Source: Candidatus Colwellbacteria bacterium GWA2_46_10
GTDB taxonomy: Bacteria > Patescibacteriota > Minisyncoccia > UBA6257 > Colwellbacteraceae
Direction: 5' to 3'
DNA length: 31,911 bases
Assembly: GCA_001817635.1 (NCBI GenBank)
Contig: MHIS01000015.1
Coordinates: 1-31,911, forward strand
Shown here: positions 23,834 through 25,508 of the stretch, piece by piece
Layout: every line of letters begins with the position of its first letter
Numbering within the stretch: position 1 is the first letter of the stretch
The notes under the pieces: generated by a model
What the model saw: only the letters and a program-made list of their open reading frames with translations
What the model was told of the DNA's origin: nothing
Database searches by the model: none
Program-made: the position numbers and the translations under genes

Positions 23834-24502
23834 TTAATATTCGTCAAAGGCATCCTTTCCGCCCTCCTTGGCTTGGGCTAGGAAGAGGACCTCATTTATA
23901 TCCCCCTCGGCTCTCTCTACCCCTCCCTTAAGAGCTCTCACGTACGAGTACGGGCCTCTCTCCCCTATACGCTCCGCAGATCCCCTATCTACCAGGGCAG
24001 ATATATCGTTTCTTAGGGTTCTCTTGCTTACCTCCGGAAAATTCCTTGAGATATCGGCTGGACGGCAACCATTAGGGAATTGCCGTATAAACTCTAGAAT
24101 TTCCGTTTGCCGTTTATCTGGCTTAACGGAAAATTGCCGTTTACTTACCTCTTTTTCCTCTTGCCGTTTAAACGGCAAGGTATTTTTCTGCCGATTAAAG
24201 AGCTTTTCTAGGTTAATTTCTACCTTTTTTTCTGGAAACTCCATAAGTTCCATCATTCCTGCAAGATTACGGAGCTCTCTTATTAAAACCTCACTATTTA
24301 CCCCACTAATCTCCTCTATAGCTTTTCCTAGTTTGATAAGGCGCCTAGCTCTATCAATAGCCGCTTGATCCAGAAACGAGACGATCTCTACCGCCACTGC
24401 CTCCAATTCTTTCCGCAGATAGGAAAATTCAACTTGTGAGGCTACGCGGTAAAGGGCAAAGGCAATATCATGCGCCAATCCGGCAATTTGGTCCCTATCC
24501 AT
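23834..24502 (-). CDS. Helical N-terminal domain plus C-terminal DeoR-like winged HTH protein
   Basis: KRQTEILEFI...ADI...FPEVSKRTLRNDISALVDRG..ERIG wHTH. The ATG at 24502 (MDRDQ) is preferred over 24538. Confidence 0.8.
   Translation of the reverse strand: MDRDQIAGLAHDIAFALYRVASQVEFSYLRKELEAVAVEIVSFLDQAAIDRARRLIKLGKAIEEISGVNSEVLIRELRNLAGMMELMEFPEKKVEINLEKLFNRQKNTLPFKRQEEKEVSKRQFSVKPDKRQTEILEFIRQFPNGCRPADISRNFPEVSKRTLRNDISALVDRGSAERIGERGPYSYVRALKGGVERAEGDINEVLFLAQAKEGGKDAFDEY
24063..24193. repeat. Intragenic array of TTGCCG sites at exact 27-bp period, with inverted copies and a perfect 20-bp palindrome
   Basis: TTGCCG at 24080, 24107, 24134 and 24161, CTGCCG at 24188; CGGCAA at 24063 and 24173; palindrome CTTGCCGTTTAAACGGCAAG at 24160-24179. 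Confidence 0.92.
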
Positions 24503-24507
24503 TGCCG
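24481..24507. promoter_or_regulatory. Inverted repeat (CGGCAAT-N13-ATTGCCG) overlapping the probable wHTH start codon
   Basis: CGGCAAT at 24481-24487 and ATTGCCG at 24501-24507; the CAT (minus-strand ATG) is at 24500-24502. Confidence 0.55.
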
Positions 24508-24639
24508 CAAGATTACCAAAGGGCGGCAGGAAGCACAACTTCCGATATGTGGAAAATCTGTGGAGACATCACACGTCAAACTTGGAATTAACTCTCTGTG
24601 CGGATATTTGAGGCATATGATGCCATCCAGGCCCTCCCA

Positions 24640-24656
24640 GAGACAACAAAACCCCA
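24640..24656 (+). repeat. 17-bp direct repeat, copy 1
   Basis: GAGACAACAAAACCCCA, identical to 25439-25455. Confidence 0.92.
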
Positions 24657-24735
24657 TATCTAGGAGTTCTTGTATCACATAGGCTTGATAGAATCGGGAT
24701 ATGGGCATCATTCCATACTATCAACATGGGGGGGG

Positions 24736-24764
24736 TTGCACTCCCAACACATATTCTGTACTAT
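24736..24764 (+). promoter_or_regulatory. Sigma70-type promoter with extended -10
   Basis: TTGCAC-17 nt-TACTAT, with TG immediately before the -10 box. Confidence 0.75.
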
Positions 24765-24769
24765 CAGTA

Positions 24770-24813
24770 TATAAACGCTCCAGCCAGCCCGAAAGGGTCC
24801 GCTGGAGTTTTTA
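24770..24813 (+). ncRNA. Candidate ~44-nt leader/small RNA ending in a GNRA-capped terminator upstream of the NYN gene
   Basis: CTCCAGC-cag-CCC-GAAA-GGG-tcc-GCTGGAG-TTTTTT starts 13 nt after the -10 box and ends 33 nt before the NYN ATG. The 5' end is estimated from the promoter position. Confidence 0.5.
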
Positions 24814-24846
24814 TTTTCTTGCAAAAGTTATATAAAGAGTTCGCAT

Positions 24847-25440
24847 ATGAGGAATATCCTACTAGTCGACGGCGAGAATTTTAAGAAAAAGATAGAGTCT
24901 GTTTTTGAGGAAGAGGGGGAGGGAGAACCAGATTGGTCATCCTATAATTTTAGAGGATTGATCGACCACGTTCTTAGCGGTATTAATTTGGGTGATAGAG
25001 TCTTTTACATAGCCAGGATAAAGGAACATGAAGAGACTAAAGAAAAATCCCGAGAGCTGATTGAAAAACAGAGAGGGCTAAAAGCCAATTTAATTAATAG
25101 CGGCTTTACTGTAGTGTCTGCGGGCAACGTCAAGGGGTGGCCCTATGGGAAGAAAGGCAGATTGATTTTCAAGGAGAAGGGCGTAGATGTTCGAATAGCA
25201 GTGGATATGATAGTGAGAGCCTGTATAGATGGAGACATAGACACTATTATTTTGGGCAGCTCCGATTCCGACTTACAGCCAGCCGTATCGGAGTTAAATA
25301 AAAGAAGCGTTAGGTCTATATACCTTGGTTTCGAGAGTAACCCGAATAAGGGATTAACTTACACAATGGGCAAGACAATCCTAATTAGGAATAGAGAAGT
25401 CATTGAATTTAAGAGCCAAAACCCCCATAAGTTGTTGTGA
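24847..25440 (+). CDS. NYN domain (LabA/DUF88) putative RNase
   Basis: LVDGEN, EKGVDVRIAVD and GSSDSDLQPAV motifs. Confidence 0.93.
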   Translation: MRNILLVDGENFKKKIESVFEEEGEGEPDWSSYNFRGLIDHVLSGINLGDRVFYIARIKEHEETKEKSRELIEKQRGLKANLINSGFTVVSAGNVKGWPYGKKGRLIFKEKGVDVRIAVDMIVRACIDGDIDTIILGSSDSDLQPAVSELNKRSVRSIYLGFESNPNKGLTYTMGKTILIRNREVIEFKSQNPHKLL

Positions 25441-25455
25441 GACAACAAAACCCCA
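25439..25455 (+). repeat. 17-bp direct repeat, copy 2, part of a minus-strand terminator-like hairpin after gpmI
   Basis: GAGACAACAAAACCCCA; the minus strand reads GCCCC-ATAATCT-GGGGT-TTTGTT. Confidence 0.9.
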
Positions 25456-25508
25456 GATTATGGGGCGGTAGTACTACAATCGAGAAAGACTACCTAAAGA
25501 TCACCGCA

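What the first reader, a model, noticed from the sequence alone, without database searches (positions are those of the whole stretch)
24063..24193. Exact 27-bp-period array of TTGCCG sites inside a winged-HTH gene: a protein that may carry its own binding-site array
Seen: TTGCCG at 24080, 24107, 24134 and 24161 and CTGCCG at 24188 (spacing exactly 27), with unrelated sequence between them. Inverted copies at 24063 and 24173 create ACGGCAA-N11-TTGCCGT and a perfect 20-bp palindrome (24160-24179). In protein the repeats read NRQ/KRQ/KRQ/KRQ/IRQ every 9 aa, always with the Arg codon CGG. Synonymous fixation plus reverse-orientation copies point to DNA-level selection. Eight exact CGGCAA/TTGCCG hexamers fall within about 450 bp of this gene, where random expectation is well under one. 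Inference: an iteron- or centromere-like array bound by the encoded wHTH, acting as an autoregulatory roadblock, parS-like anchor or nucleoid organiser.
Basis: partly seen in the sequence, partly recalled or inferred. Interest (0 to 1): 0.8.

Follow-up and report, generated by a model that had tools for sequence, protein, structure and literature searches.

The report
Regulator gene packed with own binding sites
A small DNA-binding protein gene of a tiny groundwater bacterium (Colwellbacteria, candidate phyla radiation) carries eight copies of the word CGGCAA in its own promoter and coding sequence. The word is kept at silent codon positions, in all three reading frames, in dozens of species, so the gene very probably serves as a landing pad for its own protein.

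Summary
The window has TTGCCG at 24080, 24107, 24134 and 24161, CTGCCG at 24188, inverted copies at 24063 and 24173, and two more copies at the start codon. That is eight exact hexamers in 445 bp, against about 0.3 expected.

The signal is selection on the DNA, not a peptide repeat:
- CGG is the rarest Arg codon (6%), yet all five RQ motifs use it.
- In 12 orthologues, codons overlapping the motif are frozen while other codons vary (Fisher p 3e-4).
- The word lies in three reading frames and both orientations.
- In 48%-identical orthologues one site survives frame-shifted, coding VNGK instead of SKRQ.
- In homologues down to 24% identity, CGGCAA is the commonest 6-mer of the gene: 326 sites in 39 genes.

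The protein is an Avd-like four-helix bundle predicted to self-associate, a disordered linker, and a winged helix (wHTH).

Links between motif and protein are indirect:
- A recognition-helix residue co-varies with the base flanking the motif.
- The one homologue with a changed helix has no sites.
- A second tight cluster beside or inside yraN/parS occurs in 12/15 genomes with the gene and 2/15 without.

Most likely this is a multivalent operator array for self-regulation with a second target near the origin. Binding is inferred, not shown. The scan found the same family in another genome before (e1-1045141).

The parts
23834..24502 (-). Gene for a 222-aa protein: Avd-like four-helix bundle (residues 3-87), disordered linker (88-127), winged helix-turn-helix (128-190) and a disordered tail
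   Evidence: ORF list. Orthologues start at this ATG. AlphaFold2 model: bundle and wHTH pLDDT above 90, linker residues 110-122 below 50.
24242..24502 (-). Coding part for the N-terminal four-helix bundle
   Evidence: Best structural neighbours: 2rld Z 13.8, 2gsc 13.3, Avd 4dwl 13.0, 8ub7_B 12.8; next row 10.8. Four copies score 0.41 against best control 0.06, with a head-to-tail interface.
24122..24241 (-). Coding part for the disordered linker. It carries sites 1-3 of the direct array and the palindrome.
   Evidence: In distant homologues the linker peptides are translations of the motif in all three frames.
23933..24121 (-). Coding part for the wHTH, with recognition helix VSKRTLRND. It carries sites 4 and 5 and the inverted site.
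   Evidence: S159, R161, T162 and R164 are invariant or nearly so in 75 homologues.
24188..24193 (-). Site 1, degenerate in this window (sense CGGCAG, codons N-R-Q)
   Evidence: It is CGGCAA in 6 of 12 orthologues, and CGG in 11 of 12.
24161..24166 (-). Site 2 (sense AAA CGG CAA, K112 R113 Q114)
   Evidence: A single codon at all three positions in 12 of 12 orthologues.
24173..24178 (+). Inverted site (sense TTG CCG, L109 P110). With site 2 it forms the 20-bp palindrome 24160-24179.
   Evidence: TTG in 12 of 12 and CCG in 9 of 12 orthologues.
24134..24139 (-). Site 3 (sense AAA CGG CAA, K121 R122 Q123)
   Evidence: Kept as AAC GGC AAx (V-N-G-K, shifted frame) in the 48%-identical orthologues L004, L005, L006 and L024.
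24107..24112 (-). Site 4 (sense AAA CGG CAA, K130 R131 Q132, start of wHTH helix 1)
   Evidence: A single codon in 12 of 12; also identical in the 48%-identical orthologues.
24080..24085 (-). Site 5 (sense ATA CGG CAA, I139 R140 Q141)
24063..24068 (+). Inverted site in a third reading frame (sense GGT TGC CGT, G145 C146 R147)
   Evidence: GGT in 12 of 12 and TGC in 11 of 12 orthologues. Kept as AAT TGC CG in L006, where the protein differs.
24481..24486 (+). Site at +16 (sense ATT GCC G, I6 A7), in another frame
   Evidence: GCC in 12 of 12 orthologues. Conserved at +16 or +19 in nearly all orthologues.
24502..24507 (-). Site at -5 (sense CGGCAATG), overlapping the start codon and lying between the -10 element and the ATG
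   Evidence: In L106, L005, L006 and L024 the site at this place is in the flipped orientation (TTGCCG at -6).
24524..24529 (+). Degenerate site at -27 (sense CTGCCG) in the promoter spacer
   Evidence: Exact TTGCCG in L102, L023 and L107.
24510..24518 (-). Putative extended -10 (sense TGGTAATCT), 7 nt before the ATG, so the mRNA is probably leaderless (inference)
   Evidence: The block is conserved in all close orthologues. The strict consensus scan did not call it.

Best explanation
The hexamer CGGCAA (here AAACGGCAA) is a double-stranded DNA recognition word. The gene is built around an array of it.

Proposed mechanism:
- The encoded protein oligomerises through its Avd-like four-helix bundle.
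- That presents several wHTH domains on roughly 40-residue flexible linkers.
- These bind the clustered sites multivalently, which is why orientation and spacing can vary between species.
- In this window one cluster covers the promoter and start codon (-27, -5, +16).
- A second cluster of seven sites lies 310-440 bp into the gene.
- Occupancy would shut off initiation and block or loop elongating RNA polymerase, giving negative feedback.
- The same protein also has a second conserved target, a tight CGGCAA cluster beside or inside yraN, next to parS in the origin-proximal region.

Shown: nucleotide-level selection, conservation across the family, and confinement of the array to this gene.

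Inferred: binding by the gene's own product, the oligomeric state, the leaderless promoter, and repression.
For: DNA-level selection:
- CGG makes up 6% of Arg codons, yet 5 of 5 RQ motifs use it.
- 8 of 12 motif codons are fixed to a single codon, against 10 of 72 other invariant-residue codons; p 3e-4.
- The word occurs in three frames and both orientations.
- One site is kept after a frame shift.
- CGGCAA is the top 6-mer in nearly every homologue down to 24% identity: 326 sites in 39 genes, 11.5/kb, with background levels in the flanks.
- Linker peptides are translations of the motif.

DNA rather than RNA:
- Both orientations share the same flanking bases.
- The site before the ATG is flipped in one clade.
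- There are sites upstream of the likely transcription start.
- The motif forms 7-8-nt direct tandems.
- Rfam finds nothing.

Link to the protein:
- The array in the gene is the only dense cluster in the 507-kb G000 assembly and on the 645-kb contig of G001.
- L046, with a changed recognition helix, has 0 sites.
- With residue 160 = K, base -1 is A in 107 of 137 sites; with E it is T in 206 of 318.
- yraN-side clusters occur in 12 of 15 genomes with the gene and 2 of 15 without; p 7e-4.
- In G065 both loci share the same extended flanks.

Oligomer: the Avd-like fold and self-association score 0.41 against control 0.06.

Operator position.

Precedent for a roadblock inside a regulator's own coding region: C.Kpn2I (PMC6237814).
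Against: - No binding, expression or transcript-end data exist, and no RNA run holds the locus.
- Promoter-proximal sites are clear only in this clade; distant homologues mostly have just the intragenic array. Promoter occlusion therefore cannot be the general mechanism.
- The covariation and the phyletic tests use related genomes and reflect perhaps one or two independent events.
- A sister family with a nearly identical recognition helix (VSKRTLRRD) has no array, so the helix alone does not predict the motif.
- A spacing of 27 bp is 2.6 helical turns and 7 bp is very tight for wHTH domains.
- The four-copy fold job lies outside the tool's calibration.
- Helical-bundle Z scores near 13 are borderline by the tool's own note.
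Confidence: 0.5

Rival explanations
1. Chromosome-organising or origin-domain element. The array is a high-affinity nucleation or anchor site. The multivalent protein bridges it to the CGGCAA cluster at parS/yraN (or oriC), or modulates segregation or replication there. Autoregulation would be secondary.
For: - In the closed genome G065 a second cluster of 7 sites with the same flanks lies at the GC-skew minimum, inside the densest DnaA-box cluster and between two perfect parS sites.
- The same arrangement (site cluster, then parS, then yraN) is seen in G040 and G006.
- yraN-side clusters track presence of the gene.
- The gene lies 42-86 kb from dnaA in all 8 genomes where both are on one contig.
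- The gene is single-copy and all-or-none by family.
- A dense array with no obvious regulon is typical of centromere-like sites.
Against: - ParA and ParB are present.
- No partner ATPase was seen next to the gene.
- G001 shows only a two-copy tandem near yraN and nothing at its skew minimum.
- In G000 neither parS nor yraN is assembled, so this cannot be checked for the window's own genome.
- Conserved synteny alone could explain the distance to dnaA.
Confidence: 0.22
2. The array is bound by another factor, not by the encoded wHTH. This gene is merely that factor's main target.
For: - Binding by the gene's own product was never shown.
- A sister family with almost the same recognition helix lacks the array.
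Against: - The array follows this gene family across 24-100% identity at changing positions.
- The homologue with an altered helix has none.
- Remote clusters are found where the gene is present.
- The flanking base co-varies with helix residue 160.
Confidence: 0.1
3. RNA-level element. Sense copies (CGGCAA) and antisense copies (UUGCCG) pair into mRNA hairpins, for example one that sequesters the start codon, or they are bound by an RNA-binding protein.
For: - Three adjacent inverted pairs could form hairpins: -5/+16, the palindrome 24160-24179, and 24062-24086.
- One G-U-compatible change is seen in L007.
Against: - The site before the ATG flips orientation in a whole clade, which abolishes that hairpin.
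- Uncompensated changes occur: CCA in L104, L002 and L107, and CGA in L001.
- The hexamer itself, not mere complementarity, is conserved over deep divergence.
- Direct tandems and unpaired copies predominate.
- Sites lie upstream of the likely transcript start and, at the yraN locus, in intergenic DNA.
- Rfam gives no hit.
Confidence: 0.04
4. Protein-level repeat or chance: a 9-residue KRQ peptide repeat left by a recent 27-bp duplication, by codon bias, or by an overlapping antisense gene.
For: - The repeats are in frame every 9 residues.
- An antisense frame stays open for 124-204 codons in close orthologues.
Against: - The linker is predicted to be disordered and is not conserved as protein in distant homologues.
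- CGG is the rarest Arg codon.
- The motif occurs in three frames and outside the coding sequence.
- One site is kept after a frame shift.
- There is no tandem-repeat signal.
- The antisense frame closes in distant homologues (54-134 codons), while the arrays persist there.
- Its third codon positions coincide with the sense third positions, so AAA/AAG and CAA/CAG changes would also be silent in it (my reading of the sequence).
Confidence: 0.02

Closest known systems
C.Kpn2I controller protein (and LacI at O3): a regulator whose operator lies in its own transcribed or coding region and acts as an elongation roadblock (PMC6237814, abstract read; PMC3711431, abstract listed)
   Same: The binding site lies inside the regulator's own coding sequence, and negative feedback on full-length mRNA is the proposed logic.
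   Different: Those systems have a single operator. Here there are 8 sites in this gene, up to 16 in homologues, and about 25 by an earlier scan note (e1-1045141). The sites lie in all frames and both orientations and are conserved across an order. The protein family also differs: an Avd-like bundle plus a C-terminal wHTH. A roadblock has not been shown here.
Initiators with iterons inside their own gene: lambda O / ori-lambda (from my own knowledge) and the pLS32/RepA_N plasmid Rep proteins (PMC4758243)
   Same: A binding-site array sits in the poorly conserved central, linker-coding part of the gene for the binding protein, with direct repeats at a regular spacing.
   Different: The gene here is a single-copy chromosomal gene in conserved synteny. 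DnaA is present and encoded elsewhere, and the window shows no GC-skew switch. The sites are 6-10 bp rather than 19-22 bp. There is no evidence that the array is an origin.
Omega repressor heptad arrays of pSM19035, and ParR/parC, ParG and TubR/tubC centromere-like arrays (from my own knowledge; an earlier scan note, e1-1045141, also named these)
   Same: Short words are repeated head-to-tail and head-to-head at a step of about 7 bp, implying cooperative multivalent binding. Homologues here show 7-8-bp tandems and 6-bp palindromes.
   Different: Omega, ParR and ParG have ribbon-helix-helix folds and plasmid contexts, and their arrays lie upstream of genes. Here the fold is a wHTH, the array is inside the coding sequence, and no partner ATPase gene is seen nearby.
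ParB with parS inside or next to parB/spo0J (from my own knowledge)
   Same: The site lies within the binder's own gene. It is origin-proximal and there are few loci per chromosome.
   Different: There is no ParB_N domain, and canonical ParA and ParB exist elsewhere in the genome. The motif is unrelated to parS. In three genomes the CGGCAA cluster sits beside true parS sites.
Avd / S23 (23S rRNA intervening-sequence) four-helix-bundle proteins (2rld, 2gsc, 4dwl, 8ub7)
   Same: The N-domain superposes at Z 12.8-13.8 with rmsd 1.4-2.2 over 89-93 residues. Avd is a pentameric barrel (PMC6182149). A head-to-tail self-interface is predicted here.
   Different: There is no sequence-level match to any Pfam bundle family. 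The domain is fused to a wHTH. There is no reverse transcriptase or DGR context. The pentamer is not shown.

Membership tests
DeoR-family regulators (Pfam HTH_DeoR + DeoRC) | N-terminal DeoR-type HTH scoring above the Pfam gathering cut-off | tested here: not met
   HTH_DeoR scores E 0.089, 13 bits, against a cut-off of 21. The HTH is C-terminal. The best NCBIfam hit scores 18 bits against a cut-off of 300.
DeoR-family regulators (Pfam HTH_DeoR + DeoRC) | C-terminal DeoRC sugar-phosphate-binding effector domain | tested here: not met
   No such domain is found in Pfam. The model shows only a bundle, a linker, a wHTH and a disordered tail.
Avd / S23-IVS four-helix-bundle proteins | Up-down four-helix bundle that superposes on 2rld, 2gsc and 4dwl | tested here: met
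   Z 13.8, 13.3 and 13.0 with rmsd 1.4-2.2 over 89-93 residues. These are the top four rows, clear of the next at 10.8. The tool warns that Z below about 13 is common for helical bundles.
Avd / S23-IVS four-helix-bundle proteins | Homopentameric barrel | tested here: inconclusive
   Four copies score 0.41 against best control 0.06, with a non-symmetric head-to-tail interface of the kind that builds rings. Five copies could not be submitted, and the job lies outside the calibration.
Avd / S23-IVS four-helix-bundle proteins | Sequence membership in a Pfam bundle family | tested here: not met
   The Pfam scan lists only HTH_DeoR and HTH_11 up to E = 1.
Iteron-type replication initiators with the origin inside the gene (lambda O, RepA_N) | Array of repeated sites inside the central part of the binder's own gene | tested here: met
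   most sites lie at 30-80% of gene length.
Iteron-type replication initiators with the origin inside the gene (lambda O, RepA_N) | The locus is a replication origin of a plasmid, phage or chromosome | tested here: not met
   - The window shows no GC-skew switch.
- dnaA is on another contig.
- In G065 and G001 the skew minimum lies 62 and 49 kb from the gene.
- Synteny is conserved and chromosomal, and the gene is single-copy in 79 of 151 genomes.
ParB/parS partition systems | ParB_N (CTPase) domain and a 16-bp palindromic parS | tested here: not met
   The protein has no ParB_N domain. A separate ParA and ParB are encoded at C6:14535-15711. The motif is unrelated to parS.
ParB/parS partition systems | Origin-proximal position of the sites | tested here: met
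   The gene lies 42-86 kb from dnaA in 8 genomes. The genomes are related, so these are not independent observations.
Intragenic roadblock autoregulators (C.Kpn2I type) | Binding site inside the regulator's own coding region | tested here: met
   Seven sites lie inside the ORF and are conserved at synonymous positions.
Intragenic roadblock autoregulators (C.Kpn2I type) | The protein binds the site and stalls RNA polymerase | not testable with these tools
   This needs EMSA or footprinting and in vitro transcription. No RNA-seq run holds the locus.

The most novel reading that the evidence does not exclude
The family is a previously unrecognised origin-domain DNA organiser of Patescibacteria. 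A ring-forming Avd-like bundle carries several wHTH arms that clamp two embedded site arrays, one written into its own gene and one written into or beside yraN at the parS/oriC region. This bridges loci tens of kilobases apart, or couples the protein's own dosage to replication or segregation of the origin region. Binding sites have been pushed into coding sequence, reshaping the peptides they encode.
Probability: 0.2. Interest if true: 0.9.

Novelty: new variant of a known kind. Interest (0 to 1): 0.78.

Why it matters
- It is a clean natural case in which a DNA-binding code overrides the protein code. The linker peptide of a conserved protein is dictated by the binding sites embedded in its gene, in all three frames, across an order of bacteria.
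- It gives an uncharacterised, single-copy regulator family of the candidate phyla radiation a recognition word (CGGCAA) and two candidate target loci: its own gene and the parS/yraN region. No genetics exist for these organisms, so that makes the family's function directly testable in vitro.
- If the origin-domain reading holds, it would be a new chromosome-organising system in ultra-small genomes.
- It is also a warning for dN/dS-based and repeat-based annotation, because the 'KRQ repeat' is a by-product of DNA sites.

Tried and rejected
- Tandem duplication: Tandem Repeats Finder found nothing.
- Codon bias: rejected, because CGG is the rarest Arg codon.
- Antisense gene: the frame is open in close orthologues only and cannot explain the silent-site conservation.
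- Known RNA family: none in Rfam.
- Genome-wide regulon in G000: the only other four-copy cluster (C2:3585-3852) lies in a lysA-like ORF without shared flanks, so it is chance. No other inverted or tandem pairs of note were found.
- Origin at this locus: the window shows no skew switch and dnaA is elsewhere.
- ParB substitute: ParA and ParB are present.
- Clusters near dnaA in G128 and G002: they sit in conserved DnaA codons (G-N-R-D-H), so they are not evidence.
- parS and yraN in G000: not found, probably because the region is unassembled at 91% completeness, so the second target cannot be checked in the window's own genome.
- Sister family (LFPKKEPLRYKMRE bundle plus VSKRTLRRD wHTH): no CGGCAA array and no clear alternative motif.
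- Expression: no RNA runs hold the locus.
Four copies were run instead.
Full report
**1. Observation.**

The region was read directly. On the + strand TTGCCG lies at 24080, 24107, 24134 and 24161, and CTGCCG at 24188, each exactly 27 bp apart. Reverse copies lie at 24063 and 24173. A perfect 20-bp palindrome spans 24160-24179, and ACGGCAA-N11-TTGCCGT spans 24062-24086. Two more copies lie at 24481 and 24502.

- Eight of the window's 26 copies fall in 445 bp. The background is 0.58/kb in the rest of the window and 0.66/kb in the 507-kb genome.
- The units share the 10-mer TTGCCGTTTA. Four of its five copies in the genome are here.
- The sequence between sites is unrelated, and Tandem Repeats Finder reports nothing.
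- The sites lie in a minus-strand gene (ATG at 24502, stop at 23834, 222 aa). In that gene the direct copies read N/K/K/K/I-R-Q every nine residues.

**2. The signal is in the DNA, not the peptide.**

The organism is a Candidatus Colwellbacteria (Patescibacteria) MAG from groundwater.

Codon usage and synonymous sites:
- In 291 long ORFs of the genome, CGG makes up 6% of Arg codons, against 29% for AGA and 27% for AGG. All five RQ motifs nevertheless use CGG.
- I collected the DNA of orthologues and built a codon alignment.
- Among 12 non-redundant orthologues of 60-82% identity, 84 degenerate codon columns have an invariant residue, and only 18 of these use a single codon.
- Fourteen of those 18 lie in residues 103-150. 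They include K112, R113, Q114, K121, K130, R131, Q132, I139, Q141 and G145. Other Arg columns use two or three codons.
- Codons overlapping a hexamer are fixed to one codon in 8 of 12 cases, against 10 of 72 elsewhere (Fisher p 3e-4; the sequences are related, so this is approximate).

Reading frames and orientation:
- The word lies in three reading frames: CGG CAA, ATT GCC G, and GGT TGC CG. It also lies outside the ORF, as CGGCAATG at -5.
- In 48%-identical orthologues, site 3 is kept as GTA AAC GGC AAx. That encodes V-N-G-K instead of S-K-R-Q.

Distant homologues:
- An unbiased 6-mer count was run on homologues of 24-40% identity. CGGCAA is the commonest 6-mer in almost every gene, with up to 16 copies in 660-820 nt, while the flanks stay at background.
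- Over 39 non-redundant genes there are 326 sites (8.4 per gene, 11.5/kb). They are roughly balanced between orientations (94:79 in a 22-gene subset), lie in all frames, and are concentrated at 30-80% of gene length.
- The linker peptides of distant homologues (SAIRQSAI, NGN, IAD, LP) are simply translations of the motif.

**3. DNA rather than RNA.**

- Both orientations share the same extended flanks.
- The motif forms palindromes (CGGCAATTGCCG) and 7-8-nt direct tandems.
- The site between the -10 element and the ATG is flipped in one clade. That would destroy the hairpin over the start codon.
- Changes in the arms are not compensated.
- Some sites lie upstream of the likely transcription start.
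- Rfam finds nothing.
- An antisense frame is open for 124-204 codons in close orthologues but closes in distant ones. Its third codon positions coincide with the sense third positions, so it cannot explain the frozen AAA and CAA codons (and my reading).

**4. The protein.**

- Pfam gives only sub-threshold HTH_DeoR and HTH_11 hits. NCBIfam and PDB sequence searches give nothing useful.
- A profile search finds 585 cluster representatives at E below 1e-10.
- AlphaFold2 on 75 sequences gives three confident or clearly defined parts. These are a four-helix bundle (residues 3-87), a disordered linker (88-127, with pLDDT below 50 at 110-122), and a wHTH (128-190), followed by a disordered tail.
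- The bundle's four best structural neighbours are S23-family proteins and Avd: 2rld Z 13.8, 2gsc 13.3, 4dwl 13.0 and 8ub7_B 12.8. The next row scores 10.8. Avd is a pentameric barrel (PMC6182149).
- Four copies of residues 1-95 give a self-association score of 0.41 against a best control of 0.06. That mark was reached by 21 of 30 solved homo-pairs and 0 of 23 single chains. The interface is head-to-tail, and the job lies outside the tool's calibration.
- Sites 1-3 and the palindrome therefore lie in DNA that encodes a disordered linker.

**5. Links between motif and protein.**

(a) The array in the gene is the only dense cluster in the 507-kb G000 assembly and on the 645-kb contig of G001.

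(b) L046 is the one homologue with no sites, and it has a different recognition helix: VSEKTIQRE instead of VSERTLRND.

(c) The base just 5' of CGGCAA tracks helix residue 160.
- With K at 160 the base is A in 107 of 137 sites.
- With E it is T in 206 of 318.
- The K state is essentially one clade. L016 (P at 160) and L107 (R at 160) also prefer A, so this amounts to one or two independent events.

(d) A second conserved locus exists.
- In the closed genome G065 (561,860 bp) the own gene has 4 sites. A second cluster of 7 sites lies at 124,752-125,277 with the same extended flanks (ATCCGGCAAT, AAAGCGGCAAT).
- That cluster sits at the GC-skew minimum, in the densest DnaA-box cluster, between and beside two perfect parS sites, and partly inside yraN.
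- G040 and G006, from other families, show the same order: site cluster, then parS, then yraN.
- Thirty yraN loci were drawn without regard to the motif. A tight cluster (at least 3 sites in 60 bp) is present in 12 of 15 genomes that have the wHTH gene and in 2 of 15 without it (Fisher p 7e-4).
- Both exceptions are fragmented assemblies from families that otherwise carry the gene.
- In G000 itself neither yraN nor parS is assembled.

**6. Promoter.**

Close orthologues share a conserved block, TGGTAATCT-N7-ATG. It looks like an extended -10 element, and it has no Shine-Dalgarno sequence, so the mRNA is probably leaderless (inference). Sites lie at -27, -5, +16 and +43; the last is lost in this window. 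That is a classic operator position. Distant homologues mostly lack promoter-proximal sites.

**7. Position and distribution.**

- The gene is single-copy. It is present in 79 of 151 sampled genomes of the order, and presence is nearly all-or-none by family.
- It lies 42-86 kb from dnaA in the eight genomes where both are on one contig.
- The window shows no GC-skew switch, and dnaA is on contig C7.
- ParA and ParB are present elsewhere in the genome.

**8. Interpretation.**

The best reading (0.5) is a multivalent array of operators embedded in the gene and bound by the gene's own oligomeric product. It would act by promoter occlusion in this clade, by a roadblock or loop generally, and would have a second target at yraN/parS.

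The main rival (0.22) is an organising or replication-linked role in the origin domain.

Binding by another factor (0.1), an RNA element (0.04) and a peptide repeat or chance (0.02) are less likely.

Precedents for sites inside the binder's own gene are:
- C.Kpn2I (PMC6237814);
- LacI at O3 (PMC3711431, abstract);
- pLS32/RepA_N iterons (PMC4758243);
- lambda O, and parS in spo0J (both from my own knowledge).

None of these combines this fold, this site density and this frame-independence.

The scan noted the same family in another genome earlier (e1-1045141). My analysis reached the same reading independently before that look-up. It adds the residue-160 covariation, the yraN/parS target, the origin-proximal position and the self-association test.

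The strict 27-bp period is specific to this clade. It recurs at +16/+43 in another reading frame, so it is not merely a 9-residue peptide period.

Noticed in passing
window 24547-24565 (minus-strand sense, about 45-63 nt upstream of the ATG): A block TCCACAG-N-TTTTCCAC(A) is conserved in all close orthologues upstream of the putative promoter. TTTTCCACA matches the DnaA-box consensus at 8 of 9 positions. Its function is unknown.
   Followed up: partly
window 24540-25508, compared with L099, L100, L102, L104, L105 and L107: The space between the iPGM-like gene and the wHTH gene holds variable cargo. This window and L097 have a NYN-domain gene. L100 has a Fic gene. L102 has a ParE toxin plus a 73-aa ORF. 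L104, L105 and L107 have nothing there (35-62 nt gap). It looks like an insertion hot spot for toxin-like cassettes.
   Followed up: partly
G065:C1:124926-125480 (loci L115), also G060, G141, G120 and G062 yraN loci (L199, L208, L219, L221): The yraN (UPF0102) ORF carries an internal insertion that holds CGGCAA sites and, in G065, DnaA boxes. In G006 a parS site lies inside yraN. This is a second case of binding sites embedded in coding sequence.
   Followed up: partly
G065:C1:124645 and 124873; G040:C2:55250 and 55749; G006:C2:185903-186464: Canonical parS sites (TGTTTCACGTGAAACA or close variants) cluster next to yraN in these Patescibacteria. In G065 this coincides with the GC-skew minimum and the densest DnaA-box cluster, 6 kb from dnaA.
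   Followed up: yes
window 24159-24190, + strand: Read on the strand antisense to the gene, the 20-bp palindrome is followed by a T-run. The consensus scan scores it as an intrinsic terminator for antisense transcription.
   Followed up: no
window 23834-23930 (C-terminal tail of the protein, residues about 200-222): The disordered tail keeps a short hydrophobic motif (E-I/V-L/I-F-L; L208 is invariant among the 25 aligned close homologues) and an acidic end (D-x-F-D). It may be a short docking peptide for a partner protein.
   Followed up: no
loci L052-L091 (for example L058, L065, L081): A sister family has a different four-helix bundle (LYRLTLLFPKKEPLRYKMRE), a variable linker and a wHTH with VSKRTLRRD. 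It has no CGGCAA array. In L052 the linker is a plain tandem duplication.
   Followed up: partly
window 24188-24193: Site 1 is degenerate here (CGGCAG) but exact (CGGCAA) in half of the orthologues. The +43 site present in most orthologues (TTT GCC GTx) is lost here through V17L. Individual sites therefore turn over while the array persists.
   Followed up: yes
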